A stretch of DNA of 64,000 nt from the human T2T-CHM13v2.0 reference genome, Homo sapiens: assembly GCA_009914755.4 (NCBI GenBank), contig CP068257.2:7072001-7136000 (forward strand), given 5' to 3'. The notes under the pieces are model-generated. The model was not told the origin of the DNA. It made no database searches and saw only the letters and a program-made list of their open reading frames with translations. The position numbers and the translations under genes were made by a program. Within the stretch, counting starts at the first letter, position 1; each line of letters starts with the position of its first letter. Below are positions 28,075 to 58,760 of the stretch, in pieces.

Positions 28075-28882
<808 letters not shown>

Positions 28883-28884
28883 CA

Positions 28885-29032
28885 TTTTTTTATTTTATAT
28901 ATTTTTTCTTTTTTAGAGATGGGGATCTCACTGTGTTGACCAAGCTGACCTTGAACTCCTGGCCTCAAGTGATCTTCCCATCTCAGTCTCCCAAAGTGCT
29001 GGGATTACAGGCATGAGCCACTGTGGCTGGCC
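28885..29032 (-). mobile_element. Alu fragment (reverse orientation)
   Basis: tttttagagatggggatctcactgtgttgaccaagctgaccttgaactcctggcctcaagtgatcttcccatctcagtctcccaaagtgctgggattacaggcatgagccactgtggctggcc. Confidence 0.75.
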
Positions 29033-29120
29033 TCTTTGTTTTTGTCAAGTTTTTGAGGTGTAAGTGTTCTTTATATACTCGATATTAAGCAAGACCCTGT
29101 CTCTTAAAAAAAAATGATAC

Positions 29121-29414
29121 GGCCAAGCGCGGTGGCTCATGCCTGTAATCCCAGCATTTTGGGAGGCTGAGGTGGGTGAATCACCAGAGGACAGAAGTTG
29201 GAGAGCAGCCTGGACAACCTGGTGAAACCCCATCTCTACTAAAAATACAAAATTAGCCAGGTGTGGTGGCACATGCTTGTGATCCCAGGAACTTGGGAGG
29301 CTGAGGCAGGGAGAATTGCTTGAATTTGGGAGGCAGAGGTTGCAGTGAGCTGAGATCATGTCACTGCACTCCAGCGTTGGACAACATAACGGAATCTCCA
29401 TCTCAAAAAAAAAA
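29121..29414 (+). mobile_element. Alu SINE, the last interspersed repeat before the satellite
   Basis: GGCCAAGCGCGGTGGCTCATGCCTGTAATCCCAGCATTTTGGGAGGCTGAGGTGGGTGAATCACCAGAGGACAGAAGTTGGAGAGCAGCCTGGACAACCTGGTGAAACCCCATCTCTACTAAAAATACAAAATTAGCCAGGTGTGGTGGCACATGC...tctcaaaaaaaaaa. Confidence 0.9.
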
Positions 29415-29755
29415 GCTATTAGTCCCTTACCAGATATACGATTTGCAAATATTTTCTTACATTCTGTAGGTTGTCTTGTCCTGAAACTGCATGTCATTTT
29501 TTTATGCTCTTTTATTTTTTGTTCTTACTGTTTCCTCTTTTATTTGTCTAAGCACTTTAAGTAATATTCTTTTGGGTGTTATATAATCATTCAACTGTCT
29601 GAAATCCAATTCACCCACTTTTTTCCTATTGACTATTTCTCATGATGGATTATTTCTTCAGATATTTTGTAACATTTGCTTAACTGGTTTTAAATTATGA
29701 AAATTGAGAAAGATTCTTTGCTTCATGAAATTTGGTCAGGCTCCTAAACCTTCTC

Positions 29756-32700
29756 TGGAATGGAATAGAATGAAATGGAATGGAGTTGAATGGGATGGAA
29801 TGGAATGGAATGGACTCGAATGAAATGGAATGGAATGGAGTCGAATGGAAAAGAACGGACTTGAATGGAATGGAATGGAATGGAAAGGAATGGAATGGAA
29901 TGGACTCAAAAGGAATGGAATGGAATGGACTCAAGTGGAATGGAATGGACTCGAATGCAATAGAATGGAATGGAATGGACTTGAATGGAATGGAATGGAA
30001 TGGAATGGAATGGAATGGACAGGAATGCAATGGAAGGGAATGGAATGGAATGCACTTGAATGGAATAGAATGGAAAGGAATGGAATGGACTGGAGTGATA
30101 TGGAATAGAAAGGACTCGAATGGAATGGAATGGACTATAGTGGAATGGAATGGAATAGAATGGACTCGAATGGAATGGAGTGGAATGGATTCGAATGGAA
30201 TGGAATGGAATTGAATGGATTCTAGTCAAACGGAATGTAATGGTATGGAATGGACGTGAATGGAATGGAATGGAATGGACTCGAATGGAATGAAATGGAA
30301 TGGAATTGACAGGAATAAAATGGAAAGGAAGAGATTGGAACGGATTGGAATGGAAAGGAATGGAATGCAATGGACTCGAATGCAATGGAATGTACTCGAA
30401 TGGAATGGAATGGAATGCAATAGAATGGACTCGAATGGAATAGAGCAGAATTTACTGGATTGGAATCTAATGGTATAGAGTCTAATGGAATGGAATGGAA
30501 TGGATTCGAATGGAATAGAATGGAATGGAATGGACTCGAATGGAATGGAATGGAATGGACAGAAAAGGTATGGAATGGAATGGGATGCAATGGAATTGCC
30601 TGGAGTGGAAGGGAATGGAATGGAGTGGAATGGAACGGAATGGACTTGAAGGGAATAGAATGGAATGGAAAGGAATGGACTCGAATGAAATGGAATGGAA
30701 AGGACTCAAATGCAATAGAATGGATTCGAATGTAATGTAATGTAATGGAATGGACTCGAATGGAATGGACTCAAGAGGAATGGAACGGAGTGGACTCGAA
30801 TGAAATGAAATGCAGGGGAAGGAACTCGAATGGCATGCAATGGAATGGAATAGACTCGAATGGAATGGAATGGAATGGACTCGAATGGAGTGGAAAGGAA
30901 TGGATCCGAATGGAAAGGAGAGGAATGGAATGGAATAGCATGGAATGGAATGGAATGGAATGGAATGGAATGGAATGGAATGGAATAGAATGGAATGGAA
31001 TAGAAGGGAATGGAATGGATTTTAATGGAATGGAATGGAATGGAATGGAATGGACTCGAACGGAGTGGAATGGAATCGAATGGAATGGAATGGAATGGAT
31101 TCGAGTGGAATACAGTGGAATAGTGTCGAATGGAATTCAAATGAATAAACACCAATGGAATGGAATGGACTTGAATGGAAAAGAAAGGAAATGACTCGAG
31201 TGGAATGGAATGGAAAGCAATAGAAAGGAAAGGAAATGACTCGAGTGGAATGGGATGGAATGGAATGGAATGCGCTCGAATGCAATGGAATGGAATTGAC
31301 TCGAATAGAATAGAAAGGAATGGACTCGAATAGAATGGAATGGAATGGAATGGGCTCGAATGCAATGGAGTGAAATGGACTCAAATGGAGTGGAAAGGAC
31401 TTAAATGGACTGGAATCGAATAGAATGCAACGGACTCGAATGGGATGGAATGGAAAGGACACGAATGGAACGGAATGGAATGAAATGGAATGGAATGGAT
31501 TGGAATGGAATGGGATGGAATGGAATGGAATGAAATGCAATGGGATGGTATGGTATGGATTGGAATGGACTTGAATGGAATAGAAAAGGATGGAATGGAA
31601 AGGAATGCATTTAAAAAGAATGGAATGGAATGGAATCCAATGGAATGGAAAGGCCACGAACTGAATGGAATGTAATGGAAGGGAATCGAATGGAATAGAT
31701 TGGAATTTAGTGGAATGGAATCTAATGGAATGGAATGGAATGGATTCGAATGTAATAGAATGGAATGGAATGGATTCGAATGTAATAGAATGGAATGGAA
31801 TGGAAAGGAATGTACTGTAATGGAATGGAATGGAACCAAATGGAATCGAATGGAATGGAATTTAAAAGATTCGATTGGAATGGAATGTACTCAAATGGAA
31901 TGGAATGGAATGGAAACAACTCGAGTGGAATGAAATGGAATGGAATGGAATCAAATGTAATGGAAAGGGATTGAATGGACTCGAATGGAATGGAATGGAA
32001 AGGAATGGCATGGTCTCGAGTGGAATGGAACGGAATGCAACTCAGTGGAATCGAATGGAATGGAATTGACTCAAATAGAATTGAATGGAATGGACCAGAA
32101 TGGAATTAAATGTAATGGAATGGACACACATGAAATGGACTCGAATGGAATGGAATGGAATGAAAAGGAATGGAATGGAATGGAATGATTTCGAATGGAA
32201 TGACATGGAATGATTTCGAATTGAATGACATGGAAAGGACTCGAATGGAATGGGTTGGGATTGGATGGTCTCGAATGAAATTGAATGGAATGAACTCAAA
32301 TGGAATGGAATGGAATAGAATGGACAAGAATATAATGGAATGGAATTGGCTCGAATGGAATGGAATTGATTCGAGTGGAATGGAATGGACATGAAAGGAA
32401 TAGAATGGAATGGACTCGAATGGAATGGAATGGACTCAAATGGAATGGAATGGAATGGACTCAAATGGAATAGAGTGGAATGGAATGGAATCGAATGCAA
32501 TGGAATGGAATGGACTCAAACAGAATGGAATGGACTCCAGTGGAATGGAATGGAATGGTATGGTCTCAAATGGAATGGAATGGAATGGAACAGATTCAAA
32601 TGGAATAGAATGGAATGGAATCAAATCTAATAGAGTGGAATGGAATGGACTCGAATGGAATGGAGAGTAATGGAATCGAACGGAAAGGAATGGAATTTAA

Positions 32701-35700
32701 TGAATTCCAATGGAATGGAGTGGAATTGAATGGACTCAAAAGAAATGGATGGGAATGCAATGAAATGGACTGGACTGGAAAGGAATGGAATGGAATGGAC
32801 TCGAATGGAATGGAAGGGACTCGAATGGAGTGGAGCCGAATGGATTCAAATGGAAGGTAATGGAAAGGAATGGAATGAACTCGAATGTAATGGAATGGAC
32901 TTGAATGGAATGGAAGGGACTCAGAGTGTAGCCGAATGGATTTGAATGGAATGGAATGGAATGGAATGGAATGAACTCGAATGGAATGGAATGTAATGGA
33001 ATGAAATGGACTCGAATGGAATGGCATGGAATGGAGTCGATGGAAGGGAATGGAATGGAATGGCATAAAATGGAATGGAATGGACTCAAATGTAATGCAG
33101 TTGAATAGAATGTACCTGAAAGGAATGGAGTGGAATGGAATGCAATGAAATGGACTCGAACGGAATGGAATGGAATGGAATGGAATGGAATGGACTCAAA
33201 TGAAATGGAATGGACAGGAAACGAATGGAATGGAATAGAATCGACTCGAGTGGAATGGAAGGGAATGGACTCGAATGAAATGGAATGCAGTGGAATAGAC
33301 TGGAATGGAATGCAATGGAATGAAATAAACTCGAATGGAATGGAATGGACTCGAATAGAAGGGAATGGAATGGACCTGAATGGAATGGAATGGAATGGAA
33401 GGGAACAGAATGGAAAAGAATGGATTGGAATAGAATGGAATGGAATCAAGTGAACTCAAATGGAATGGAATGGAATGGACTCGAATGGAATAGAATGGAA
33501 TTTACTGGATTGGAATCTAACAGAATTGACTCTAAAGAAATGGAATGGAATGCACCCGAATGGAAGCGAATGGAATGGAATGGACTCGAATGGAATGGAA
33601 TGGAATGGAATGGAATGGAATGGAATGGAATGGAATGGAACTGAATGGAATGGAGTTGAATGCAATAGAATGGAATGGACTCGAATGAAATCGAATGGAA
33701 TGGAGTCAAATGGAATGGAATGGAATGGAATGGACTCAAAAGGAATGGAATGGAATGGAATCAAGTGGAATGGAATGGACTCGAATGCAATAGAATTGAA
33801 TGGAATTGAATCGAATGGAAATGAATGAAATGGACAGGAATGGAATGGAATGGAATGGAATGGAATGGAATGGAATGGAATGGAATGGAAAGGGATGGAC
33901 TGAAATGGAATGGAATGGAATGGACTGAAATGCAATGGAATGGACTTGAATGGAATAGAATGGAAAAGAATGGAATGGACTCGAATGATATGGAATACAA
34001 AGGACTCGAATGGAATGGAATGTACGCTAGTGGAGTGGAATGGGATAGAATGGCCTCAAATGGAATGGAGTGGAATGGATTCGAATGGATTGGAATGGAA
34101 TTCAATGGATTTGAGTCAAACGGAATGTAATGGTATGAAAATGGACTCGAATGGAATGGAATGGAATGGACTTGAATGGAATGGAATGGAATGGAATGGA
34201 AAGGAATAAAATGGAATGGAATAGAATGGAATGGAATAGAATGGAATGGACTTGAATGCAATGGAATGGATTCGAATGGAATAGAGAGGAATTTACTGGA
34301 TTGGAATCTAATGCTACGGACTCTAACGGAATGGAATGGAATAGACTCAAAAGGAATAGAAAGGAAGGGAATGGACTCGAATGGAATGGAATGAAATGGA
34401 CACGAAAGGTATGGAATGGAATGGGATGGAATGGAAGGGACTGGAATGGAAGGGAATGGAATGGAGTGGAATGGAACGGAATGGACTTAAATGGAATAGA
34501 ATAGAAAGGAAAGGAATGGACGCAAATGAAATGGAATGGAAAGGACTCAAATGCAATGGAATGGATTCGAATGGAATGGAATGGACTTGAATGTAATCGA
34601 ATGGAATGGACTCAAGTGGAATGGAATGGAGTGGACTCGAATGAAATGGAATACAGGGGAAGGAACTCGAATGGCATGCAATGGAATGGAATAGACTCGA
34701 ATGGAATGGGATGGAATGGAATCGAATGGAGTGGAATGGAATTGACACGAATGGAATGGAACGGAATGGGATGGAATGAAATGGAATGGAATGGAGAGGA
34801 ATGGAATGGAATGGAATGGAGAGGAATGGAATGGAATGGAATGGATTGGAATAGAATGGAAAGGAATGGAATGGAATAGAAAAGGAAGGTAATGGAATGG
34901 AATGGAATAGAATGGAATGGAATGGATTTTAATGGAATGAATTGGAATGGAATGGAGTCAAATGGAGTGGAATGGACTCGAATTGAATGGAATGGAATGG
35001 AATGCACTCGAGTGGAATAGAGTGGAATTGACTCGAATGGAATTCAATGGAATGAACTCCAATGGAATGGAATGGACTCGAATGGAATGGAAACGACTCG
35101 AGTGGAATGGAATGGATTGGAAAGGAATGGAAAGGAAATGACTGGAGTGGAATGGAATGGAATGGAATGGAAGGTACTCGAATGGAATGGAATGGAATTG
35201 ACTCGAATGGAATAGAAAGGAATGGACTCGAATAGAATAGAATGGAATGGAATGAACTCAAATGCAATGGAGTGGAATGGACTCGAATGGAATGGAAAGG
35301 AACTAAATGGACTGGAATCAATTGGAATGCAACAGACTCGAATGGAATGGAATGGAAAGGACATGAATGGAATGGAATGGAATGGAATGGAATGGAATGG
35401 AATGGAATGCTATGGGATGGTAAGATTTGGATTGGAATGGACTTGAATGGAATAGAAAGGGATGGAATGTAATGAATTTAAACAGAATGGAATGGAATCG
35501 ACTCCAATGGAATGGAAAGGCCACGAATTGAATGATATGGAATGGAACAGACTGGAATGCAATAGATTGGAATTTAGTGAAATGGACTCTGATGGAATGG
35601 ACTGGAATGGAATCGAATGTAATACAATGAAATGGAATGGAAAGGAATGTAATTTAATAGAATGAAATGGAATCAAACGGAATGGAATTTAAAGGACTTG

Positions 35701-37500
35701 AATGGAATGAAATGTACTCAAATGGAATGGGATGGAATGGAAACGACTTGAGTGGAATGAAATGGAATGCAATGGAATTGAATGAAATGGAATGGGATTG
35801 AATGGACTTGAATGGAATGGAATGGAATGGCATGGTCTCGAATGGAATGGAATGCAATTGAATGGACTCAAAAGGAATGAAATAGAATTGACTCGAATGG
35901 AATTGAATGGAATGGACCAGAATGGAATTAAGTGTGATGGTATGGACACGAATGAAATGGAAAGGAATGGTCTCAAATGGAATAGAATGGAATGGAATGG
36001 AATGGAATGATTTCAGATCAAAGGACATGGAATAGACTCGAACGGAATGGGTTCGGATTGGATGGTCTCGAATGTAATGTAATGGAATGGACTCAAATGG
36101 AATGGAATGGAATAGAATGGACTCGAATATAATAGAATGGAATTGGCTCGAATGGAATGGAATGGATTCGAGTGGAATGGAATGGTCACGAATGGAATAG
36201 AATGCAATGGATTCGAATGCAATGGAATGGAATTGAATGGACTCTAATGGAATGGAATGGACTTGAATGCAATGGAATGGAATGGATTCGAATGGAATGA
36301 AATGGACTCCAGTGGAATGGAATGGAATGGTATGGTCTCAAATGGAATGGAACGGATTCAAATGGAACAGAATGGAATGGACTCGAATCTAATGGAGTGG
36401 AATTGAATGGACTCAAATGGAATGGAGGCTAATGGAATTGAGTGGAATGGAAAGGAATTTAAAGGACTCAAATGGAACGGAATGGAATTGAATGGACCCA
36501 AAAGTTATGGATTGGAATGGACTCGAATGGAATGGAATGGAATGGACTCGAATGGAATGGAAGGGACTCTAATGAAATGGAATTGAAAGGAATCCACTCG
36601 AGTGAAAAGGAATAAAATGGAATGGAATGCACATGAATGGAATGGAATGGAGTTGACTCGAAAGGAATAGAAAGGAATGGACTCGAATGGAATGAAATAG
36701 AATGCAATGGACTCGAATGGAATAGAGTGGAATAGAACCGAATGGAAAAGAATAGAATAGAGTCGAATTGAATGAAGTGGAATGGAATGAACAAGAATGG
36801 AATTGAGTGGAATGGACTCGAAGAGAATGGAATCGAATTGAAAGGACAGGAATGGAATGGAATGCAATGGAATGGAATGGAATGGAAAGGAATGGAATGG
36901 AAAGGAATGGAATCGAATGGAATGGAACGTAATGGAATGAAATGGACTCGAATGGAATGGAATCCAATGGAATGGACAGGAATGAAATAGAATGGAAATG
37001 AAAAGAATGGAATGGAATGGACTCAATGGAAATCAACTGAATTGAATGGACTCGAAAGGAATGGAATGGAATGGAATGGAATGGAGTGGAATGATATGGA
37101 CTTGAATAGAATGGAATGGAATAAAATGGAATGGAATGGTGTCGAATGGGAGTGAATGGAAAGCAATGGAATGGACTCAAATGGAATGGAATGGAATTGA
37201 CACAATTGGAATAGAATGGAATGGAATAGACTCTAAAGGAATGGAATGGAATGGACACGAAACATATGGAATGGAATGGGATGGGATAAAATGGACTGGA
37301 ATGGAAGGGAATGGAATGGAGTGGAATGGAATGGAATGGAATTCAATGGAATAGAATGGAATGGAATAGACTCTAAAGGAATGGAATGGAATGGACACGA
37401 AACATATGGAATGGAATGGGATGGGATAAAATGGACTGGAATGGAAGGGAATGGAATGGAGTGGAATGGAATGGAATGGAATTCAATGGAATAGAATGGA
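29756..37500 (+). repeat. Two diverged copies of a ~3.85-kb higher-order repeat (copy A ~29,756-33,640, truncated at the array edge; copy B ~33,645-37,500)
   Basis: Colinear similarity at a constant offset of ~3.81-3.90 kb across the whole interval. Examples: 29,775-29,990 vs 33,645-33,830; 30,445 'gaatttactggattggaatctaatgg' vs 34,287; 30,650-30,800 vs 34,500-34,650; 31,310-31,470 vs 35,213-35,370; 32,215-32,400 vs 36,020-36,200. Also seen as similar artifactual ORF translations at the same offsets. Confidence 0.75.
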
Positions 37501-37504
37501 ATGG

Positions 37505-39240
37505 AATGGAATGGATTCGAATGAAATGGAATGGAAAGGACTCGAATGCAATAGAATGGATTTGAATGTAATGTAATGGAATGGAATGGACTCAAAACGA
37601 ATGGAACGGAATGGACTCAAGTGGAATGGAATGGAATGGACTCGAATGGAATAGAATGGAATGGAATGGAATGTACTCGAATGGAATGGAATTGAATGGA
37701 CACGAATGGAATGGAATGAAGTGGAATGGAATGAACTGGAATGGAATGGAATGGAGTGGAATGAAAAGGAATGGACTTGAATTGAATAGAATGGAGTGGA
37801 ATGGAATGGACTCGAATGAAATGAAATGGAAAGGACCTCAATGCAATGGAATGGACTAGAATGGAATGTAATGGATTGGTATGGACTCGAATGGAATGGA
37901 ATAGAATGGACTAAAGAGGAATGAAATGAAATATATTCGAATGGAATATAATGGAAAGGAAAGGGCTCGTATGGAATGGAATGGACACGAATGGAATGGA
38001 ATGGAGAGGAATGGAATGGACTGGAATGGAATGGAATGGAACGGAAAGGAATGGAATGAAATGGAATGGGCTAGAATGGAAGAGAATGGAATGGAATGGA
38101 ATGAACTCGAATGAAATGGAGTGGAATGGACTCGAATGGAATGGAATGGATACGAGTGGAATGGAATGGAATCGAATGGAACGGAATGGAAAGGAATCAA
38201 ATGGAATTTAATGGAATGGAATGGAATGGAATGGAAAGGAATGGACTCGAATGGAATGCAGTGGAATGGATTCGAATGGAATGGAATGGAATGAAAGGGA
38301 ATCGAAGAAATGGAATGGAATGGAATGGACTCGAATGAAATGGAATGTAAAGGACTCGAATGCAAAGGAATGGAATCAAATGTAATGTAATGGAATGGAC
38401 TAGAATGGAATGGAACGGAATGGACTCAAGTGGAATGGAATGGAATGGACTCAAATGGAATAGAATGGAATGGAATGGAATGTACTCGAATGGAATGGAA
38501 TTGAATGGACATGAATGGAATGGAATGAAGTGGAATGGAATGGACTGGAGTGGAATGGAGTGGACTGGAATGGAATGGAATGGAGTGGAATGGAATGGAG
38601 TGGAATGGAAAGGAATGGAAATGAACGGAATAGAATGGAGTGGTATGGAATGGACTCGAAGGAAATGGAATGGAAAGGATTGAATACAATGGGATGGACT
38701 CGAATGGAATGTAATGGATTGGAATGGACTCGAATGGAATGGAATGGAATGGACTAAAGAGGAATGAAATGAAATATATTCGAATGGAATATAACGAAAA
38801 GGAAAGGGCTCATATGGAATGGAATGGACACGAATGGAATGGAATGGAATGGACTGGAATGGAATGGAATGGAGTAGAATGGAATGGAAAGGAATGGAAT
38901 GGAATGGGCTAGAATGGAATAGAATGGAATGGAATGGAATGCACTCGAAATAAATGGAATGGAATGGACTCGAATGGAATGGAATGGACATGAGTGGAAT
39001 GGAATGGAATCGAATGGAAAGGAATGGAAAGGAATCAAATGGAATTTAATGGAATGGAATGGAATGGAATGGACTCAAATGGAATGCACTGGAATGGATT
39101 CGAATGGAATGGATTGAAACTGAATGGACTCGAGTCGAACGGAATGTAATAGTAAGGAATGCACTCAAATGGAATGGAATTTAATGGAATGGAATGAAAG
39201 GGACTTGAAGAAATGGAATGGAATGGAATGGAATGGAATG
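37505..39240 (+). repeat. Two copies of a ~0.83-kb repeat block (37,505-38,340 and 38,340-39,240), related to a sub-segment of the 3.85-kb unit
   Basis: 37,581-37,760 vs 38,399-38,580 ('...MEWNGMYSNGMELNGHEWNGMKWNGM...' in both ORF translations); 37,926 vs 38,769 (MKYIRMEYN...); 38,140-38,330 vs 38,980-39,240. Contains a perfect 2x140-bp tandem duplication at 37,211-37,490 just upstream. Confidence 0.7.
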
Positions 39241-40321
39241 GAATAGAATGCAATGGAATGGACAAGAAAGGAGTGCAGTTGAATTGAATGGACCCAAAAG
39301 GAATGGAATGGAATGGAATGGAAGGCAGTGGACTCGAACAGAATGCAACGGAAATGACTAAAATGGAATGGAATGGACTCGAATGGAATGGAATGGAATG
39401 GAATGGACTCGAAAGGAATGGCATGGATTGCACCCGAATGGAATGGAATGTTATGGAAAGTAAAGGACTCGAATGGAATGGAATGGAATGGAATTCACCC
39501 AAATGGAGTGGAATGGAATGCAATGGACTCGAATTGAATGGAACGCAATGGACAAGAATGGAATGGAATGGAATGGAATAGAATGGACTGGAATGGAATA
39601 GCTTGGAATGGAATGGACTTGAATGCAATGGAATGTAATGGACTCGAAAGGAATGGAATGGACTCAAACGGAATGGAGTGGACTGGGCTCAAATGGAATG
39701 GAATGGAATGGAATGGTCTCGAGTGGAATGGAAAGTAACAGAAGGGAATGAATTCGAATGGAATAGAATGGATTCAAATGGAATAGAATGGATACGAATG
39801 GAATGGAATGGAATGGATTAAAATGAAATGGAATGGAATGGAATCGACTCGAATGAAATGGAATGCAGTGGAATGGACTGGAATGGCATGCAATGGAATG
39901 GAAGAAACTTGAATGGAATCAAATGAACTCGAATGGAAGGGAATGGAATGGTTGCGAATGGAATGGAATGGAACGGAATGGCATGGAATGTAATGGAATA
40001 GAATGGAATAGAATTGATTAGAAAGGATTGGAATAGAATGGAATGGAATGGAATAGACTGAAATGGAATGGAATGCAATGGACTCGAATTGAATAGAGTG
40101 GGATATACTGGATTGGAATTTAATGGAATTTGACACTAATGAAATGGAATGAAATGGACTCAAATGAAATCAAATGTAGTGGAATGGACTCGTATGGAAT
40201 GGAATGGACACGAATGAAATGGAATGGAATGGAGTTGAATGGAATGGAATGGAATGGAATGGAAGGGAATGGAGTTGAATGGAATAGAATGGAATGGACT
40301 CGAATGAAATGGAATGGAATG
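39241..40321 (+). repeat. Copy 1 of a near-identical ~1.08-kb duplicated satellite block
   Basis: Colinear with 40,783-41,867 at offset ~1,542 bp, estimated 98-99% identity by eye, with a few substitutions and one GGAATGG indel. Confidence 0.85.
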
Positions 40322-40782
40322 GCCTCGAATGGAATGGAATGGAATGGAATTGACACTAATGGAATTGAAGGGAATGGACCCGAATGGAATGGAATGGACT
40401 TCAATTGAATGCAGTGGAATTCATTGGGCTCAAATGGAATGGAATGGAATGGAATGGAATGGAATGGAATGGAATGGAAAAGAATGGAATGGAATAGAAT
40501 GGAATGGGATTGAATGGAATGGACATGAATGTAATGGAATGGACTCAAATGGAATAGCATGGAATGGAATGGAATGGACTCAAGTGGAATAGCATGGAAT
40601 GGAATGCACTTGAATACAATGGAGTGGAATGGACCCGAATGGAATAGAATGGCATTGAACGGATTCAAATGCAATGGAACGTAACGGAATAGAATGAACT
40701 CGAATGGAATGTAATGTAACGGAATGAAATGTGTTCAAACGCATTGTAATACAATGGAATAGAATGGAATGGAATGGAATGG

Positions 40783-41867
40783 AATAGAATGCAATGGAAT
40801 GGACAAGAAAGGAGTGCAGTTGAATAGAATGGACCCAAAAGGAATGGAATGGAATGGAATGGAAGGCAGTGGACTCGAACAGAATGCAACGGAAATGACT
40901 AAAATGGAATGGAATGGACTCGAATGGAATGGAATGGAATGGACTCAAAAGGAATGTCATGGATTGCACCCGAATGGAATGGAATGTTATGGAAAGTAAA
41001 GGACTCGAATGGAATGGAATGGAATGGAATTCACCCAAATGGAGTGGAATGGAATGCAATGGACTCGAATTGAATGGAACGCAATGGACAAGAATGGAAT
41101 GGAATGGAATGGAATGGAATAGAATGGACTGGAATGGAATAGCTTGGAATGGAATGGACTTCAATGCAATGGAATGTAATGGACTCGAAAGGAATGGAAT
41201 GGACTCAAACGGAATGGAGTGGACTGGGCTCAAATGGAATGGAATGGAATGGAATGGACTCGAGTGGAATGGAAAGTAACAGAAGGGAATGAATTCGAAT
41301 GGAATAGAATGGATTCAAATGGAATAGAATGGATACGAATGGAATGGAATGGAATGGATTAAAATGAAATGGAATGGAATGGAATCGACTCGAATGAAAT
41401 GGAATGCAGTGGAATGGACTGGAATGGCATGCAATGGAATGGAAGAAACTTGAATGGAATCAAATGAACTCGAATGGAAGGGAATGGAATGGTTGCGAAT
41501 GGAATGGAATGGAACGGAATGGCATGGAATGTAATGGAATAGAATGGAATAGAATTGATTAGAAAGGATTGGAATAGAATGGAATGGAATGGAATGGAAT
41601 AGACTGAAATGGAATGGAATGCAATGGACTCGAATTGAATAGAGTGGGATATACTGGATTGGAATTTAATGGAATTTGACACCAATGAAATGGAATGAAA
41701 TGGACTCAAATGAAATCAAATGTAGTGGAATGGACTCGTATGGAATGGAATGGACACGAATGAAATGGAATGGAATGGAGTGGAATGGAATGGAATGGAA
41801 TGGAATGGAAGGGAATGGAGTTGAATGGAATAGAATGGAATGGACTCGAATGAAATGGAATGGAATG
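40783..41867 (+). repeat. Copy 2 of the near-identical ~1.08-kb duplicated satellite block
   Basis: See copy 1. Homology stops at ~41,867 ('gactcgaatgaaatggaatggaatgg' then divergent), so this is a duplicated block, not a strict tandem repeat. Confidence 0.85.
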
Positions 41868-44800
41868 GAGTTGAATGGAATGCAATGGACTCAAATGGAT
41901 TGGAATGGCATGGACACGAATGGAATGAATTGGAATGGCATGGACAACAATGGAATGGAATGGACTTGAATGGAATGGACTAGAATGGAATAGAATGGAA
42001 TGGAATGGAGTTGAATGGAAGAGAATCGAAGGGAATGGAATGGACTTGAATGGAAGAGAAGCGAAGGGAATGTAATAGACTCGAATGAAATGGAATTGAA
42101 TGGACTCGAATGGAATGGGAAGGATTCGAATGGAATAGAATGGACTCGAATGGAATGGAATGGAATGGACTGTAATGGAATCGAATGGAATTCAGTGGAA
42201 TGGAAGTTAATGGAACGGAATGAAATGGAATGGACTTGAATCAAATAGTATGGAAACGAATGGAATGGACTCCAATGAAATGGAATGGAATGGACTCTAA
42301 TGGAATGGAATTGACTCGACTGGAATGGAATGAAATGGAATGGACTCAAATAAAATGGAGAGGAATGGATTCGAAAGGAATGGAAAGGAATTGACTACAA
42401 TGGAATGGAAAGGAATGGACTCAAATGGATTTGAATATAATGGAATGGAATAGAGTGGAATGGAATCGAATGGAATTCGAATGGAATTGAATGGACTCGA
42501 ATCAAATGGAATGTAATGGACTGGAATGGACTCGAAAGGAATGGAGTTGAAAGGAGTCTAATGGAATGGAATGGACTCGAATGGAATAGAATGGAATGGA
42601 ATGGAACTAAAAGGAAGGGAATTGAATGGACATGAAATGTATGGAATGCAATGGAACGGACTGGAATGGAATGGAAAGGAATGGATTGAAATGGAATGGA
42701 ATTGACGTTAATGGAATAGAATGGAATGGAATGGAATGTACTCGAATGGAATGGAATTGAATGGACATGAATGGAAAGGAATGAAGTGGAATGGAATGGA
42801 ATGGGATGGAATAGGATGGAATGGGATGGAATGGAATGGAATGAAATGGACTGGAATGGAATGGAATGGAATGGAGTGGAAAGGAAAGGAATGGACTTGA
42901 ATGGAATAGAATGGAGTGGAATGGAATGGACTCGAATGAAATTGAATGCAAAGGACTTGAAAGCAATGGAATGGACTTGAATGAAATGTAATGGATTGGA
43001 ATGGGCTCGAATTGAATGGAATGGAATGGACTCAAGAGGAATGGAATGGAATAGAGTCGAATGTAATATAATGGAATGGAATGAGCTCGAATGGAATGGA
43101 ATGGAGTGGAATGGAATGGACTAGAATAGAATGGAATGGAATGGAATGGACTTGAATGGAGTAGAAAGGAATAGAAGGGAATGGATTCGAATGAAATGGA
43201 ATGGAATGGATTCGAATGGAATGGACACGAGTGTAATGGATTGGAATGGACTCAAGTGGAATGGAATTGAATCGAATGGAATGGAGTGGAATGGATTCGA
43301 ATGGAATGGAATGGAATTGAATGGACTCGAGTTGAATGGAATGTAATGGTAAGGAATGGGCTCGAATGGAATGGAATGGAATGGAATCAAAGGGACTCGA
43401 ATGAAATGGAATGGAATGGAATGAACTCGAATTAAATGTGATGGAATGTAATGGAATGGAATGGACACAAATGGTATGCAGTGGAATTGAATTGACTCGA
43501 AAGGAATGGAATGGAATGGAATGGACTCGAAAGGAAAAGAATGGAATGGAATGGAGTGGAATGGAATGGAATTGAGTGGAATGGAATAGAATGGAATGGA
43601 ATGGACTCCAATGGAATGGAATGGTCTCGAAGGTAATTGAATGGAATGAAAGCGACTCAAATGGAATTGAATGGAATGGAATGGACTCTAATGGGATAGA
43701 ATGGAATTGAATGGATTCTAATGGAATCGAATGCGCTGGAATGGATTGCAGTTGAATTGAATGGATCTGAAAAGAATGGAATGGAATGGTCTGCAATAGA
43801 ATGGAATGGAGTGGAATGGAATGGAATGGAACAGAATGGACTTGAATGGGATGCAAAGGAATGGACAGGAGTCTAATGGAATGGAATGGAATGGACCCAA
43901 ATGGAATGGAATGGAATAGAATGAAATGGAATGGAATGGACTTGAATGGAATGTAATGGACACGAATGGAATGGAATGGAAGGGGATGGAATGGAATGGA
44001 ATGGAATGGAAAGGAATGGACCAGAATGGAATGCAATGGAATGGACTGGAATGGAATGGAATGGTATGGAAAGGAATGGACTTGAATGGAATGGATTGGA
44101 ATGGACTCGAAAATAATGGAATGGAATAGATTCGAACGGAATGGAATGGACACAAATGGAACGGAATGTAATGGAATGCACTCGAATGGAATACAATGGA
44201 ATTAAATTGAATATGCTCTAATGGAATGGAATGGAATGGAATGGACTAGAATGGAATGGAAAGAAATAGAGTCGAATGGATTGGAATGCAATGGAATATA
44301 CTCAAATGGAATTTAATGGAATGGACTAGAATGAAATTGAATGGACTGGAATGGAATGCAGTTAAATTGAATGGACACGAAAGCAATGGAATGGATTGGA
44401 ATGGAATGGAATGGAATGAAATGGAATGAAATGGACTCAAAAGGAATGCAATGGGATGGAATAGACTCGAATGGAATGGAGTGGAATAGAATGGAAAGGA
44501 CTCGAATGGAATGGAATGGACACGAATGGAATGGAATGGAATCGACTCAAACTGAATGGAATGGACTCGAATGGAATGGAATAGAATGGAATTGAGTCTA
44601 AAGGAATTGAATGGAATGTACCCGAATGGAATGGAATGAAATGGATTGTTCTCGAAAGGAATGGAATGGAAGGAATGGAATGGAATGGAATGGAAGGAAT
44701 GCAATGGAATGGAACGGAATGGAATCGAATAGAATGGAGCCGAAGGGACTCGAATATAATGGAATGGAATTGAATGGACTGGAATGGAATGGAATGTAAA

Positions 44801-47800
44801 GAAATGGAATGAACTCGAATGGAATGGAATGTAATGGAATGAAATGTACTCGAACGGAATGGAATGGAATGCAATGGACTCGAGTGGAATGGTATGGAGT
44901 GGCATGGAATGGCATGGAATAGAATGGAAATGACTGAAATGGAATGCAGTTGAATTGAATTGACCTGAAAGGAATGGAATGGAATGGAATGGAATGCAGT
45001 GGAATGGAAAAGAAAGGAATGAAATGCACTCGAATGGAATGGAACGGTACAGAATGGACTCAAATGAAATGGAATGGACCCAAACGAAATGTAATGGAAT
45101 GTAATTGACTCCAGTGCAATGGAATGGAATGGACTCGAATGAAATGGCATGCAGTGGAATGGACTGGAATCGCATGCAATGGAAAGGAATAGACTCAAAT
45201 GGAATGGAAGGGAATGGAATGGACTCTAATGTAATGGAATGGACACGAATGGAATGGAAAGGAATGGAATAGAGTTTAACAGAATGGAATGACATGGATT
45301 GGAATATAATGGAATGGAATGGAATGGACTCAAATGGAATGTAATGGAATGGACTCGAATGGAATAGAAAGGAATTTACTGTATTGGAGTCTAATGGAAT
45401 GGACTCAAATGTAATGCAAAGGAATGGAATCGAATGGAATCAAATGGAATCGAATGGATTCAAAGGGAATGAAATGGAATGGAAAGGAATGGAATGAAAT
45501 GGAATGGAATTGTGCTGAATGGAATAGAATGGAATGGAATGGACTCGAATGAAATGGAATGGAATGGAGTCGAATAGAATGGAATGGACTCGAATGGAAT
45601 GGAATGGACTCAAGTGGAATGGAAATAAATAGCTTCGAGTGCAATAGAAGGTAATGGAATGGACTCGAAAGGAATTTAATGGAATGGAGTCGAATGGAAT
45701 GGAATGGAATGGAACGGAATATACTTGTATGGAATAGAAATGAAAGGAATGGAATGGACTCGAATGAAATTGAATAGAATGGAAAGGAATGTAATGGACA
45801 CGAATAGAATGGAATGGAAACAACTAGAGTGAAATGGAATGGTATGGAATTGAATGCACTCAAATGGAACGGAATGGAATTGACACTAATGGAATAGAAA
45901 GGAATGGACTCCAATGGAATGCAATGGAGTGGAATGGACTCTAATGGAACGGAGTGGAATGGATATGAACGTAATGGAATGGATTGGAATGGAATGGAAT
46001 GGAATGGACTTGAATGGAATAGAATGGAAAGGAATGGAATGGACTAGAATGAAATGGAAAATAATGGACTCGAATGGAATGGAATAGACTCCAATGGATT
46101 GGAATGGAATGGACTCAAAAGGAATGGAATGGAATGGAATGGACTCAAGTGGAATGGAATGGAATGGACTCGAATGTAATAGAATGGAATGGAATAGAAT
46201 GGAATGGAATGGACTCGAATGGAATGCAATGGACATGAATGGAAAGTAATGGAATGGAATAGAATGGACTGTAATGGAATCGAATGCAATGCAATGGAAT
46301 GGAATGGAATGGAAAGGAATGGACTTGAATGGAATAGATTGGAAACGAATGGAATAGACACGAATGAATTGGAATGGAACAGAATCTAATGGAATGGAAT
46401 TGACTTGACTGGAATGGAATGAAATGGAATGGACTCAAGTGGAATGGAGTGGAATGCAAACGAAAGGAATGGAATAGAATTGACTAGAATGGAATAGAAA
46501 GGAATGGACTCGAATGGATTGGAATATAATGGAATGGATTCAAATGGAATTAAGTTAAATGGAATCGAAAGGAATTCGAATGGAATTGAATGGACATGAA
46601 TGGAATGGAATGGAATGGAATGGACTCGAAAGGAATGGAGTGGAAATGACATGAATGGAATGGAATGGACTCGAATGGAATGGAATGGACTTAAGTGGAA
46701 TAGAATGGAATGGACTCAAATTGAATGGAATGGACTCGAATGGAACAGAATGGAATGGAATGGAATGTACACGAATGGAATGAAATTGAATGGACAAGAA
46801 TGGAATGGAATGGAATGGAATGGAAAGGAATGGCACGGAATGGAATGGAATTGACTGGAATGGATAGCAATGGACTTAAATGGAATACAATGGAGTGGAA
46901 GGGAATGGACTCGAATGAAATGGAATGGAAAGGACTTGAAAGCAATGGAATGGACTCGAATGGAATGTAATGGATTGGATTGGAATGGACTTGAATGGAA
47001 TGGAATGGAATGAACTCAACAGGATTGGAATGGAGTAGACTCAAATGGAATATAATGGAAAGGATTGGGCTCGAGTGGAATGGAATGGACATGAATGGAA
47101 TGGAATAGGGTGAAATGTAATGGATTATAAAGGAATGGAATGGACTTGAATGGAATAGAATGGAATGGAAAGGAATGGACTCAAATGAAATGGAATGGAA
47201 TGGACTTGAATGGAATGGAATGGACACGAGTGGAATGGAATGGAATGGACTCGAAAGAATGGAATGGAATTCAATTGAATAGAATGGAAAAGAACAGGAA
47301 GGAATGGAATGGAATGGAATGGACTCGAACGGAATGGAGTGGAATGGATTCGAATGGAATGGAATGGACTCGTATTTAATGGAATGGAATGCAATGACAG
47401 GGACTCAAATGAAATGGAATGGAATGAAATGTACTCGAATTTAATGCAATGGATTGTAATGGAATGGAATGGAATCAAATGGTATGGAATGGAATTGACT
47501 GGAATCGAAAGGAATTGAACAATATAGAATGGACTCAAAAGGAATGGAATGGAATTGAATGGAATGGAATGGAATGGAATGGACTCGAATGGAAGGGAAT
47601 GGAATGGACTCCAAAGGAATGAAATAGTCTTGAAGGGAATAGAATGGAATGAAAACGACTAGAGTGGAATGGAATGGAATGCAATGGACTCTAATGGGAT
47701 AGAATGGGATTGAATGGACTCTAATGGAATGCAATAGTATGGAATAGAACGGAATGGACTGGAATGGAATGGAATGCAGTTGAATTGAAAGGATCCGAAA

Positions 47801-50800
47801 AGAATGGAAAGGAATGGAATAGAATGGAATGGAATGCGAAGGAATGGAATTGAGTGGGATGGAATGGAGTGGAAAGGACTCTAATGGAATGGAATGGAAT
47901 GGACTCGAATGGAATGGAATGGAAGAGAATGGACTTGAATGAGATGGAATGTAATGGAAAGGACTCTAATGGAATGAAATGTAATGGACCCAAATTAATG
48001 GAATGGAATGGAATGGAATGGAAAAGGTATGGAATGGAATTGACCCGAATGGAATGGAATGGACTCAAATGGAATGAAATGTAATGTAATGGAATGGAAG
48101 GGACTCGAATGGAATGGAAGGGAATGGACTCGAAAGGAATGGAATAGAATGGAAAGGAATGGAATGGATTCTAATGGAAAGGAATTGAAAGGAAACAACT
48201 TGAGTGAAATGGAATAGTATGGAATGGAATGCACTCAAATGGAATGGAATGGAATGGAATCTAATGGAATCGAAAGGAATGGACTCCAATGGAATTGAAT
48301 AGAGTGCAGTAAACTCGAATGGAATGGAGTGGAATGTATATGAATGGCATGGAATGGAATGGATTGGAATGGAACGGAATGGACTTGAATGGAATAGAAT
48401 GGAAGGGAATGGAATGGACTCGAAGGAAATGGAAAAGAATGCACTTGAATGGAATGTAATGGACTCAAATGTATTGTAATAGAATGGACTCGAATGGAAT
48501 GGAATGCAATGGAATGGACTCAAGTGGAATGCAATGGACTCGAATGGAATAGAATGGACTCGAATGGAATGGAATGGACACGAATGGAAAGTAATGGAAT
48601 GGAATGGAATGGACTCTAATGGAATCGAATGGAAAGTAATGGAATGGAATGGAATGGAGTGTAATGGAATGGAATGGAGTGGAATGGAATGGAAAGGAAT
48701 GGACTTGAATGGAATAGATTGGAAACGAATGGAATAGACTCGAATGAATTGGAATGGAATGGACACCAATGGAATAGAATTGACTCGACTGGAATGGAAT
48801 GAATTGGAGTGGACTCAGATGCAATGGAGTGGAATGGATTCGAATGGAATCGAATGGAATTGAGTAGAATGGAATAGAAAGTAATGGACTCGAATGGATT
48901 GGAATATAATGGAATGGACCCAAATGGAATGGAGTGGAATGGATTCGAAAGGAATTCGAATGGAATTGAATGGATTTGAATTGAATGGAATGGACTAGAA
49001 AGGAATGGAGTGGAATGGACTCGAATGGAATTTAATGGACTCGAATGGAATGGAATGGACCGTAATGGAATGGAATGGAATTGAGTGGAATGGAATTGAG
49101 TGGAATGGAATTTAATGGAATGGAGAGGAATGGAATGGAATGGAATGGAATGGAATGGAATGGAATGGAATGGAATGGAATTCAATAGAATGGACTGGAA
49201 TGGAATGGAATGGAATGGAATTCAATAGAATGGACTGGAATGGATTGGAATTGAAAGGAATGGAATGGTCTTGAATGCAGTGGAATGGACTCCAATGGAA
49301 TGGAATGGAATGCAATGGAATGGACTCGAATGTATTTGAGTGGAATTTACTGGATTGGAATCTAATGTTATGGACTCTAATGGACTGGAATGGAATGTCC
49401 TCAAATGGAATAGAATGGAATGGAATGGACTTCAATGGAAAGGAATGGAATGGACATGAAACGTATGGAATGGAATTGGATGGAATGGAATGGACTGGAA
49501 TGGAAGGGAATGGAATTGATTGGAATGGAACGCAATGGACTTGAATGAAATAGAATTGAATGGAATGGAATGGACACGAATGAAATTAAAAGGAAAGTAT
49601 TCAAATGCAATGCAATGGACTCGAATATAATGGAATGGAATGGAATCAAATCGAATGGAACAGAATGGAATGGAATGGAATGGAATGGAATGTACTTGAA
49701 TGGAACAGAATGGAATGTAATGGAATTTACTCAAATGGAATCGAATTGAATGGACACGAATGGAAAGGAATGAAACGGAATGGAATGGAATGGAACGGAA
49801 TGGAATGGAATGGACTGGAATGGAAAGGAAAGGACTTGAATGCAGTACAATGGAGTAGAAGGGAATGGACTCGAATTAAATGGAATGGAAAGGACTTGAA
49901 AGTAATGCAATGGATTCAAATGGAATGTATTGGAATGGAATGGACTCCAATGGAATGGAATGGAATGGACTCAAGTGGAATGGAATGGAATAGACTCGAA
50001 TAGAATATAATGGAAAGGATTGGGCTCGAATGGAATGGAATGGACACGAATGGAATGGAATAGAGTGAAATGGAATGGACTGGAATGGAATGGACTTAAA
50101 TGGAATACAATGCAATGGAAAGGACTGAACTGGAATGAAGTGGAATGGAAAGGACTTGAATGGAATGCAATGAACACGAGAGGAATGGAATGGAATGGAC
50201 TCGAATGGAATGGAATGGACTCGAATAGAATGGAGTTTAATGGATTCAAATGGAATGGAATGGAATTGAATGGACTCGAGTCTAATGGAATGTAATGGTA
50301 TGTAATGGACTCGAATGGAATGGAATGGAATGCAATCAAAGGGACTCGAATGAAATGTAATGGAATGGAGTTGAATTTAATGCAATGGATTCTAATGGAA
50401 CGGAATGGATTCAAATGTTACGGAACAGAATTGAATGGACTTGAAAGGAATTGAATGGAATGGAATGGACTCGATAGGAATGGAAAGGAAGGGAACCGAA
50501 TCGAATGGAAGGGAATGGAATGGAATCCAATGGAATGAAATGGTCTCGAAGGGAATGGAATGGAATGAAAATGACTCGAGTGGAATGGAATGGAATGGAA
50601 TGGAATGGAATGGAATGGAATGGAATGAAACGAAATGGACTCTAATGGGATAGAATGGCATTGAATGGACTCTAATGGAATGGAATGGAATGGACTGGAA
50701 TGAAATGCAGTTGAATTGAATGGATCTGAAAGGAATGGAACAGAATGGAATAGAATGGAATGGAATGGAATGGAATGGACTTGAATGGGATGGAATGGAA

Positions 50801-52451
50801 TGGAATGAAATGGACTCGAATGGAATACAATGGAATTTAAATGAATAGAATCTATTGGAATGGAATGGAATGGTCTCGAATGGAATAGAATGGAATAGAC
50901 TCGAATGGAATGGAATTAAATAGAATACAATGGACACGAATGGAATGGAATGGAATGCAATAACATGGAATGGTATGGATTGGAATGGATTTGAATGGAA
51001 CAGAATGGGAGGGAATGGAATGAATTCAAAAGGAAAGGAATGGAACGGAATGCAATGGAATGGAAAGGCCACGAGTGGAATGGAATGGAATGAAATAGAA
51101 TAGATTGCAATTTAGTGAAATGCACTCTAAATGAATTGAATGGAATGGACTTGAATGCAATAGAATGGAATGGAATCGAATGGAATGAAATGGAATGGAC
51201 TTGAATGGAAAAGAATAGAATGGAGTGGAACGGAATGGATTAGAATGGAATTGAGTTTAATAGACTCGAATGGAATGGAATGTAAGTAAAAGGACAGGAA
51301 TGGAAAGGAATGTAATGGAATGGAATGGAAAAGAATGGTATGGAAAGAATGGAATGCAATAGAATGGAATGGAATGGATTGGAATGGAATGGACTCGAAT
51401 GGAATGTAATGGAATCGACCCAAATAGAATGTAAAGGAATGGAATAGACTCGAAAGGAATGGAAAGGAATGGAATGGACTCGAATGGAATGGACTCGAAG
51501 GGAATGGTATGTAATGGCATCCAATGGAATGGAATGGAATGGACTCTATTGAAATAGAATGTACCCAAATGGAATGGAATGGAGTGGAATGGAATGGAAT
51601 GCAACGGAGAGGAATGGAGAGGAATGGAATGGAATGGAGAGGAATGGAATGGAATGGAATGGAATAGATTGGAATGGAATTGATTGGAATAGAATGGAAT
51701 GGAAAGGAATGGACTCAAACGGAATGGAATGCGGTCGAATGGAATGAAATGAAATGGAATGACCTCGAATGGAATAGAATGGAATTTACTGGATTGGAAA
51801 CCAATGGAATGGACTCGAATGGAATGGAATGGAATGGACTCGAATGGAATGGAATGGTATGGACTCGAATGGAATTAAATGGAATGGGATGGACTCGAAT
51901 GGAATGGAATGGAATGGACTCAAATGGAAAAAGAGTGGATTGGAACGGCCTCGAATGAAATGGAATGGAATGGAGTCAAATGGAATGGTATGGACTCAAA
52001 CGGAGTGGAGCCGAATGGATTCGAATGGAATGGACTGGAATGGAATGGAATGAATTCGAATGGAATGGAATGGAATGGAATGAAATGGACTCAAATGGAA
52101 TGGCATGGAAAGGACTCGAATGGAATGGAAAGAAATGGAATGGAATGGAATGAAATAGAATGGACCCGAAGGAAATGGAATGGAATAGAGTCGATTTGAA
52201 TGAAATGGAATGGAATGGTCCCGAATGAAATGGAATGCAGTGGAATCGACTGGAAAGGCATGAAATGGAATGGAATAAACTCGAATGGAATGGAATGGAG
52301 TCGAATGGAACGTAATGGAATGGACCCGAATGGAATGGAATGTAATGGAATAGAATAGAATGGAACAGAATGGATTGGAATAGAATGGAATTGAAAGGAG
52401 TGGACTCAAGTGGAATGGAATGGAATGGACTCGAATGGAATAGAATGGAAT

Positions 52452-58400: not shown

Positions 58401-58760
58401 AATGGAATGATATTTAATGGTATCGAATGGAATGGAATGGAATGAACTCGAATGAAATGGATTGGATGCAAATGGAATGGAATGGAATAGAATGGAATGG
58501 AATGGAATGGAGTAGATTTGAATGGAATAGAACGGAATGGAATTGATTGGAATGGAATGGAATGGAATGGAGTAGATTTGAATGGAATAGAACGGAATGG
58601 AATTGATTGGAATGGAATGGAATGGCATGCAATGGAATCGAATAGAATGGACTCGAAATGAATGGAATGGAATCGAAGGGAATGAAATGAAATGGAATGG
58701 GCTCGAATGGAATAGTATGGAATTTACTGGATTGGAGTCCACTGGAATGGACTCTAATGG
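52452..58760 (+). repeat. At least 4 diverged copies of a ~1.85-2.4-kb higher-order repeat
   Basis: Marker 'GAATTTACTGGATTGGARTCYAAYGGAATTGACTCTA' at 52,452 / 54,307 / 56,352 / 58,727. Second marker 'GAATTKTCCGGATTGAAATCTAATGGTAT' at 53,185 / 55,015 / 57,055. Long colinear similarity 51,976-52,536 vs 53,914-54,528 and 53,489-53,713 vs 55,356-55,610. Confidence 0.7.

What the first reader, a model, noticed from the sequence alone, without database searches (positions are those of the whole stretch)
29415..29800. Sharp euchromatin-to-satellite junction at ~29,756
An AT-rich single-copy stretch (29,415-29,755, ending '...tttggtcaggctcctaaaccttctctg') runs straight into (GGAAT)n with no transition zone, no TE at the boundary, and no diverged or degenerate satellite units. 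The first satellite bases are already colinear with an internal position of the 3.85-kb higher-order unit (29,775 matches 33,645), so the array edge cuts through a higher-order copy. Exact base-resolution junctions between arm sequence and HSat arrays are informative about how these arrays arose and about breakpoints of pericentromeric rearrangements.
Basis: seen in the sequence. Interest (0 to 1): 0.55.

Follow-up and report, generated by a model that had tools for sequence, protein, structure and literature searches.

The report
Sharp edge of HSat3 satellite array
This is the real, base-sharp left edge of a long (GGAAT)n human-satellite-3-type array in primate DNA, but it is an ordinary, multi-copy pericentromeric-type boundary and the array has no 3.85-kb higher-order repeat.

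Summary
The junction is real. Alu/L1-bearing, AT-rich DNA (GC 31%) ends at ...CCTTCTCTG (29,757). A one-strand (GGAAT)n array then starts within 2 bases and runs uninterrupted to the window end (at least 34.2 kb). Match to the pentamer jumps from about 0.35 to 0.87 with no degenerate zone.

- There is no array-wide 3.85-kb higher-order repeat. The first ~3 kb has one old duplicate at +3.84 kb (81-90% identity against a 77-83% background), with no third copy. Other parts of the array carry unrelated local duplications of 0.84, 1.54, 1.85 and 3.77 kb.
- The flank is not demonstrably single-copy. Two independent metagenome contigs carry the same flank-to-satellite junction at the same base, with 97.4% and 93.1% flank identity. 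The junction therefore arose once and was copied, which also argues against an assembly artefact.
- TEs lie close by. An Alu block ends 343 bp upstream, inserted into an antisense L1 ORF2 remnant. Only the last ~280 bp of flank is unclassified.

The array is HSat3-type, not HSat2, and its subfamily is unresolved. Satellite boundaries of this kind inside duplicated pericentromeric or acrocentric DNA are well documented. Interest is low.

The parts
29030..29081 (-). Left half of an antisense L1 ORF2 remnant, split by an Alu insertion
   Evidence: With 29,082-29,414 excised, the minus-strand peptide [37 protein letters not shown] matches L1 ORF2p residues 1030-1063 at 54% identity, E 2e-8 in the small construct search. 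The ORF2p reference was verified against PDB 9k6g_A.
29082..29414 (+). Alu block: a short Alu 3' tail, then a full-length Alu with a poly-A tail ending at 29,414
   Evidence: Sub-threshold Metazoa_SRP hits lie at 29,122-29,238 and 29,256-29,428 on the + strand. The sequence read looks like Alu. The Alu tail is also present in paralogue L002.
29415..29476 (-). Right half of the antisense L1 ORF2 remnant
   Evidence: tblastn places ORF2p residues 1030-1053 at 29,476-29,405 with 54% identity, E 0.006 against the 29.7-kb flank. The match extends across the Alu.
29477..29755 (.). AT-rich unclassified flank directly abutting the satellite. It is conserved in two external copies.
   Evidence: The 29,415-29,757 stretch that contains it has GC 30.6%. 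It has no repeat within the window and no protein-level similarity to L1 ORF2p 962-1029 or to any PDB chain. It is 97.4% identical to L001 and 93.1% to L002.
29756..29757 (.). Junction: two bases (TG) that can be assigned either to the flank or to the first TGGAA unit
   Evidence: Read directly from the sequence. TRF starts the array at 29,756. The junction position is identical in L001 and L002.
29758..64000 (+). HSat3-type (GGAAT)n array. It is uninterrupted, in one orientation, and runs off the window end.
   Evidence: TRF reports period 5, 6,851 copies and 68% matches. No 100-bp window is poor in GGAA; GGACTCGAATGG occurs 99 times; HSat2 markers occur 0 times.
29885..32827 (+). Copy A of an old local duplication of about 3.84 kb
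   Evidence: blastn gives 29,756-31,111 against 33,596-34,953 at 83.5%, 31,758-32,827 against 35,595-36,574 at 81.3%, and a core 30,398-31,001 against 34,239-34,842 at 89.9%. Distinctive shared variants begin near 29,885.
33715..36574 (+). Copy B of the same duplication. There is no third copy.
   Evidence: The +7.6 kb alignment is 78% identical, which is background.

Best explanation
This is the true left boundary of an old, poorly homogenised HSat3-type (GGAAT)n array of at least 34 kb in a primate genome, most likely human. The adjoining DNA is ordinary Alu-rich sequence: an antisense L1 ORF2 remnant carrying an Alu insertion, with a CpG island 11 kb away.

The junction was formed once. It was then copied together with its flank and at least the first ~270 bp of satellite. 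Two other diverged copies therefore share exactly the same breakpoint. This is the expected behaviour of segmentally duplicated pericentromeric or acrocentric 'centric transition' DNA.

Inside the array, change proceeds by local tandem duplications of varied length (0.8-3.8 kb) and point mutation, not by a fixed higher-order unit. The edge is as pure as the interior because the whole array is uniformly old.

Shown: the sharp junction, its recurrence at the same base in independent assemblies, the absence of a higher-order repeat, and the TE content of the flank.

Inferred: that the extra copies are paralogues produced by segmental duplication, the pericentromeric or acrocentric location, and the order of events (L1, then Alu, then the junction present before the copies diverged).
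For: Junction:
- Sharpness and purity of the first units.
- Same junction base in L001 and L002.

External copies:
- Flank identities are 97.4% over 311 bp and 93.1% over 432 bp.
- In the shared 311 bp there are 6 window-private, 10 L002-private and 1 L001-private substitutions. These are three distinct sequences, not sequencing noise.
- L002 also shares the Alu tail, so the Alu predates the copying.
- L002 is colinear with the window at 93-99% up to ~30,026, then falls to the 75-82% background.

Array structure:
- There is no array-wide period. Local duplications are 1,541 bp (97.6%), 844 bp (90%), 1,854-1,872 bp (89-95%), 3,841 bp (core 89.9%) and 3,772 bp (90%).
- HSat3-type, not HSat2.

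Flank:
- L1 and Alu content.
- About 19 Alu blocks and a CpG island.

Literature:
- Non-satellite DNA between and beside pericentromeric arrays is largely segmental duplication (bioRxiv 10.1101/2021.07.12.452052).
- 98% of the non-satellite sequence on acrocentric short arms is segmentally duplicated (bioRxiv 10.64898/2025.12.22.696095).
Against: - The species, chromosome and copy number could not be determined, because no primate reference genome was available.
- The two external contigs are short metagenome assemblies of unknown host. They could be orthologues from other primates rather than paralogues.
- L001 carries a Nextera adaptor, and its left 535 bp is unrelated to the window. It may be chimeric.
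- L002 loses colinearity about 270 bp into the satellite. That could be short-read misassembly rather than biology.
- Only 311-432 bp of shared flank is visible. This is below the formal size criterion for a segmental duplication.
- The window copy itself is not directly validated by reads.
Confidence: 0.75

Rival explanations
1. A unique chromosome-arm sequence meets an HSat array organised in 3.85-kb higher-order units, and the array edge truncates one unit. The junction then marks a specific breakpoint through an established periodic array.
For: The first ~3 kb of the array does have its best match in the window at +3,840 bp.
Against: - Only two copies exist, at 81-90% identity.
- The +7.6 kb alignment is at background level, and a segment 26.6 kb away scores higher than it.
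- Other regions of the array show different periods.
- The first ~120 bp align only generically.
- The flank is not unique.
Confidence: 0.07
2. The extra copies are orthologues, not paralogues. The junction is single-copy per genome and ancient. L001 and L002 would come from other primate hosts or very deep haplotypes, and their 2-7% divergence would reflect species divergence.
For: The divergences are in the range of ape and Old World monkey versus human distances. The host of the metagenome samples is unknown.
Against: - Most host contamination in public metagenomes is human (background knowledge).
- L001 and L002 differ from each other by about 3.6% as well, so two further species would be needed.
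- The literature describes flanks of HSat3 arrays as predominantly segmentally duplicated.
Confidence: 0.15
3. Insertion origin. A pre-formed block of (GGAAT)n, for example from a duplicative transposition or extrachromosomal circle, integrated into an old antisense L1. The remainder of that L1 would then lie at the far end of the array.
For: An L1 ORF2 remnant points toward the junction. The transition is abrupt, with at most 2 bp of microhomology.
Against: - The 280 bp adjoining the satellite shows no detectable L1 similarity.
- The far end of the array is outside the window.
- Expansion in place from a short GGAAT seed, or a breakage-fusion event, would give the same picture.
Confidence: 0.2
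4. Assembly join or collapse. The junction would be an artefact of assembling satellite reads onto unrelated sequence.
For: Satellite edges are classic misassembly sites. No reads were available for this window.
Against: Two independent assemblies from different projects reproduce the same junction at the same base, with their own private substitutions.
Confidence: 0.03

Closest known systems
Human satellite 3 (HSat3 / classical satellite III) arrays, with subfamilies as defined by Altemose et al. 2014 (PMC4022460)
   Same: - A tandem array derived from the (CATTC)n/(GGAAT)n pentamer, in a single orientation and tens of kb long, with a recurrent GGACTCGAAT variant.
- It lacks all HSat2 markers.
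- The most frequent HSat3A1-specific 24-mer from Table 1 occurs 2 times exactly and 36 times with at most 1 mismatch.
   Different: - The classical interspersed 10-bp motif (CAACCCGAGT) is absent, with 0 copies.
- Subfamily assignment rests on one 24-mer per subfamily, and that 24-mer is close to the generic repeat, so it stays unresolved.
- No multi-kb nested tandem repeat is present, unlike DYZ1 (HSat3A6) or the 1.77-kb HSat2A2 unit.
'Centric transition' and acrocentric short-arm segmental duplications flanking satellite arrays (T2T centromere paper, bioRxiv 10.1101/2021.07.12.452052; acrocentric evolution, bioRxiv 10.64898/2025.12.22.696095)
   Same: Non-satellite, Alu-rich DNA with a CpG island abuts a classical satellite. 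The flank and junction exist in several copies 93-97% identical to each other.
   Different: Only 311-432 bp of the shared flank could be seen. The length, copy number and chromosomal location of the duplication are unknown.
Alpha-satellite higher-order repeats and HSat nested tandem repeats
   Same: Multi-kb duplications do occur within the array.
   Different: There is no single dominant period. The copies come in pairs of differing lengths and ages, from 81% to 97.6% identity.

Membership tests
HSat3 (human satellite III) | Tandem array derived from the (CATTC)n/(GGAAT)n pentamer | tested here: met
   TRF reports period 5 over 34.2 kb. Best-phase pentamer match averages 0.823. The 5-, 10-, 15- and 20-mer spectra are dominated by GGAAT multimers.
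HSat3 (human satellite III) | Classical description: pentamers interspersed with a specific 10-bp sequence (CAACCCGA(A/G)T; the existence of a 10-bp motif is stated in PMC8125562, its sequence is from memory) | tested here: not met
   ACTCGGGTTG/CAACCCGAGT occurs 0 times on either strand. The recurrent variant is GGACTCGAATGG, 99 times. The subfamily scheme in current use classifies arrays by specific 24-mers and, to my knowledge, does not require this motif.
HSat3 (human satellite III) | Distinct from HSat2, i.e. no HSat2-specific 24-mers or CATTCGATGAT-type units | tested here: met
   The HSat2A1, HSat2A2 and HSat2B 24-mers give 0 hits even with 2 mismatches. CATCATCGAATG occurs 0 times.
HSat3 subfamily (A1-A6, B1-B5; Altemose 2014) | Enrichment of subfamily-specific 24-mers | tested here: inconclusive
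   Only one published 24-mer per subfamily was available. HSat3A1 gives 2 exact and 36 hits with at most 1 mismatch. A2 gives 0 and 6, B5 gives 0 and 4, and the others give 0 or 1.
HSat3 (human satellite III) | Pericentromeric or acrocentric short-arm location | not testable with these tools
   No primate reference genome was available.
Higher-order / nested tandem repeat organisation | One dominant multi-kb period repeated many times, with identity between copies well above the monomer background | tested here: not met
   Spacings between shared k-mers show several unrelated local periods. The 3.84-kb pair is 81-90% identical and has no third copy.
Segmental duplication (pericentromeric type) | Paralogous copies of at least 1 kb at 90% identity or more within one genome | tested here: inconclusive
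   Two extra copies are 97.4% and 93.1% identical, but only 311-432 bp of flank plus ~270 bp of satellite is visible. The host genome of the contigs is unknown.
Alu / L1 content of the flank | Similarity to 7SL-derived Alu and to L1 ORF2p | tested here: met
   SRP-model hits with E values from 2e-10 to 1e-5. L1 ORF2p residues 1030-1063 match at 54% identity, E 2e-8, after the Alu is excised. ORF2p residues 1030-1053 match at E 0.006 in the intact flank.

The most novel reading that the evidence does not exclude
The junction together with its first ~270 bp of satellite could behave as a conserved 'edge module'. Between the window and L002, this satellite edge is 98-99% identical, while the adjoining unique flank is only 91-96% identical. 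This could mean that array edges in different paralogues are kept alike by gene conversion. It could also mean that a flank-plus-edge duplicon repeatedly seeds new HSat3 arrays at new chromosomal sites.
Probability: 0.05. Interest if true: 0.4.

Novelty: already known. Interest (0 to 1): 0.12.

Why it matters
It matters little on its own. Sharp boundaries between classical satellites and duplicated pericentromeric or acrocentric DNA are now resolved to the base in telomere-to-telomere human and ape assemblies. The useful outcome here is corrective:
- The junction is real and recurs in several diverged copies, so it cannot serve as a unique chromosome-specific breakpoint marker without further work.
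- The array has no 3.85-kb higher-order unit.

If the copies were mapped in complete assemblies, the shared breakpoint could help date and order the duplications that spread this HSat3 block.

Tried and rejected
- Exact-protein look-ups of the junction-spanning ORF and of two flank ORFs in the assembly collection found nothing on record.
- A homology search with the 111-aa junction ORF returned only 22 generic HSat-like ORFs at 45-65% identity. None carried the flank peptide.
- Two scans of bacterial and archaeal genome contigs and one scan of viral contigs for flank patterns gave 0 hits.
- phmmer of the flank's minus-strand frames against PDB sequences gave only spurious kinase hits that ran across the artificial X linkers. 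L1 similarity was recovered only by targeted tblastn with a verified ORF2p segment.
- Ungapped autocorrelation of the array showed only multiples of 5 bp, so shared-k-mer spacings and blastn were used instead.
- One blastn run with word size 11 on the satellite timed out.
- A literature search for the two contig accessions found nothing, so their host is unknown.
- I considered identifying the gene at the CpG island by protein search. I dropped it because the GC-rich ORFs look non-coding and the result would not change the verdict.

Full report
**What is in the sequence**

The window is primate DNA. Its first 29.7 kb contains about 19 Alu-like blocks, an L1 ORF2 remnant and a CpG island.

At the reported position the non-satellite sequence ends ...TTTGGTCAGGCTCCTAAACCTTCTCTG at 29,757 and is followed directly by GAATGGAATAGAATGAAATGG.... 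Tandem Repeats Finder calls a single period-5 array from 29,756 to 63,999, with 6,851 copies and 68% matches.

After the junction GGAAT occurs 2,685 times and its complement ATTCC once. Before the junction the counts are 29 and 29 in 29.7 kb, roughly what chance predicts. The array is therefore in one orientation and has no outliers upstream.

**How sharp is the junction**

I scored best-phase identity to (GGAAT)n.
- The last three 100-bp bins of the flank score 0.31-0.38.
- The first five array bins score 0.87, 0.87, 0.89, 0.85 and 0.82.
- The array mean is 0.823 with sd 0.038, so the first bin lies at the 86th percentile.
- At 10-bp resolution the score goes from 3-4 of 10 to 9 of 10 exactly at 29,758.

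Only the dinucleotide TG (29,756-29,757) can be assigned to either side. The flank 29,415-29,757 is AT-rich (GC 30.6%) and has no second copy within the window.

**The higher-order repeat claim**

Spacings between shared rare 20- to 24-mers show no array-wide period. The commonest spacings (1,540, 140, 1,850, 800, 3,840, 2,380 bp) each come from one confined region.

blastn of the first 4 kb of the array finds its best match at +3,840 bp:
- 29,756-31,111 against 33,596-34,953, at 83.5% identity.
- 31,758-32,827 against 35,595-36,574, at 81.3% identity.
- A 604-bp ungapped core at 89.9% identity.

This sits on a background of 77-83% between any two array segments. At about +7.6 kb identity is 78%, lower-scoring than a match 26.6 kb away, so there is no third tandem copy.

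Other local duplications have other lengths and ages:

| Length (bp) | Identity |
|---|---|
| 1,541 | 97.6% |
| 844 | 90% |
| 1,854-1,872 | 89-95% |
| 3,772 | 90% |

In the residue-level alignment, distinctive shared variants of the 3.84-kb pair begin only near 29,885. The first ~120 bp align merely as generic GGAAT. With two copies no repeat phase exists, so the statement that the array edge cuts through a higher-order copy is not supported. The array is an old patchwork of local duplications.

**What kind of satellite**

- None of the HSat2-specific 24-mers from Table 1 of Altemose et al. 2014 (PMC4022460) occurs, even with two mismatches. HSat2-type CATCATCGAATG units are also absent.
- The HSat3A1 24-mer occurs twice exactly and 36 times with at most one mismatch. 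All other HSat3 24-mers occur 0 times exactly and at most 6 times with at most one mismatch.
- The recurrent non-pentamer element is GGACTCGAATGG, 99 times.
- The classical 10-bp motif CAACCCGAGT is absent.
- No 100-bp window of the array is poor in GGAA, so there are no TE insertions in 34.2 kb.

I file it as HSat3-type with the subfamily unresolved. A1-like is only a weak lead.

**The flank**

Sub-threshold SRP-model hits mark a + strand Alu at 29,122-29,428 and minus-strand Alus at 28,914-29,031 and 28,600-28,734.

I took a human L1 ORF2p C-terminal segment written from memory and checked it against the PDB. It is identical to 9k6g_A residues 962-1274. With that reference:
- tblastn finds RQPTECKKIFANRISGKGLI at 29,476-29,405 on the minus strand, matching ORF2p residues 1030-1053 (E 0.006).
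- After removing the Alu block 29,082-29,414, the match extends to 37 residues at 54% identity (E 2e-8).

So an Alu inserted into an old antisense L1, and that composite lies 280-340 bp from the satellite. The last ~280 bp (29,477-29,755) shows no similarity to ORF2p 962-1029 or to any PDB chain and remains unclassified. 'No TE at the boundary' is therefore true only in the narrowest sense.

**Related sequences from elsewhere**

I scanned public metagenome contigs for the 27 bases that end the flank. Two contigs matched. Both run from the same flank into GGAAT repeats at exactly the same base.
- Flank identity to the window is 97.4% over 311 bp for L001 and 93.1% over 432 bp, including the Alu tail, for L002.
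- In the 311 bp shared by all three there are 6 window-private, 10 L002-private and 1 L001-private substitutions. These are three genuinely different copies, not errors.
- L002 remains colinear with the window at 93-99% for about 270 bp into the satellite, up to ~30,026. It then drops to the 75-82% background and matches nothing else in the window above that level.
- L001 has a Nextera adaptor at one end, and its other 535 bp are unrelated to the window. It may be chimeric, or it may be a copy with a different outer boundary.

Two conclusions follow.
- The junction is not an assembly artefact of the window's source, because independent assemblies reproduce it.
- The junction arose once and was then propagated. 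The flank is not single-copy in the wider sense.

**Most likely explanation**

This is the boundary of an old HSat3-type array lying in duplicated pericentromeric or acrocentric DNA. That matches published descriptions:
- On acrocentric short arms, 98% of the non-satellite sequence is segmentally duplicated (bioRxiv 10.64898/2025.12.22.696095).

The inferred order of events is L1, then the Alu insertion (shared with L002), then the junction present before the copies diverged by 2-7%. Local duplications inside each array continued independently afterwards.

How the junction first formed cannot be decided from this window. The candidates are insertion of a satellite block into the L1, expansion in place from a seed, or breakage and fusion. 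The far end of the array lies beyond 64,000.

**Rivals**

- The extra copies could be orthologues from other primate hosts, since the sample origin is unknown. I give this 0.15.
- An assembly artefact gets 0.03.

**Dead ends**

- Exact-protein look-ups found nothing.
- The protein homology search with the junction ORF returned only generic satellite ORFs.
- Scans of bacterial, archaeal and viral contigs were empty.

**Verdict**

The more interesting claims attached to it do not hold: a 3.85-kb higher-order unit cut by the edge, a single-copy flank, and the absence of TEs. Interest is 0.12.

Noticed in passing
window 17,250-18,750: A clear CpG island (GC 0.69-0.76, CpG observed/expected about 0.8) lies about 11 kb from the satellite edge. 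The long GC-rich ORFs on both strands look non-coding. It may be a promoter of a pericentromeric gene or lncRNA.
   Followed up: partly
window 23,776-23,912 (+): A U2 snRNA match above Rfam's gathering score (61.4 bits against 46). It spans model positions 1-192 in only 137 bases, so it is probably a U2 pseudogene with internal deletions.
   Followed up: no
window 39,212-40,343 and 40,753-41,889: This is the youngest duplication in the array: 1,541-bp spacing and 97.6% identity over 1,142 bp. It is much more recent than the 3.84-kb pair at the array edge.
   Followed up: partly
window 5,996-6,209 (-): A second L1 remnant, matching the extreme C-terminus of ORF2p (residues about 1203-1274) at 53% identity, E 6.5e-16.
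   Followed up: no
window 13,037-13,131: A 47-bp unit repeated twice at 97% identity (TRF score 183).
   Followed up: no
L001 positions 1035-501 (reverse strand as read): In this external copy, homology to the window starts only at window 29,447, inside the L1 remnant. The preceding 535 bp are unrelated and begin with a Nextera adaptor. This is either a chimeric contig or a paralogue whose duplicated segment carries just 311 bp of flank.
   Followed up: partly
L002 433-700 vs window 29,758-30,026: Between the window and L002, the first ~270 bp of satellite is more similar (98-99% in two 100-bp bins) than the adjoining unique flank (91-96%). Beyond that point colinearity is lost abruptly. This could be short-read misassembly, gene conversion at the edge, or array turnover. 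It remains unexplained.
   Followed up: partly
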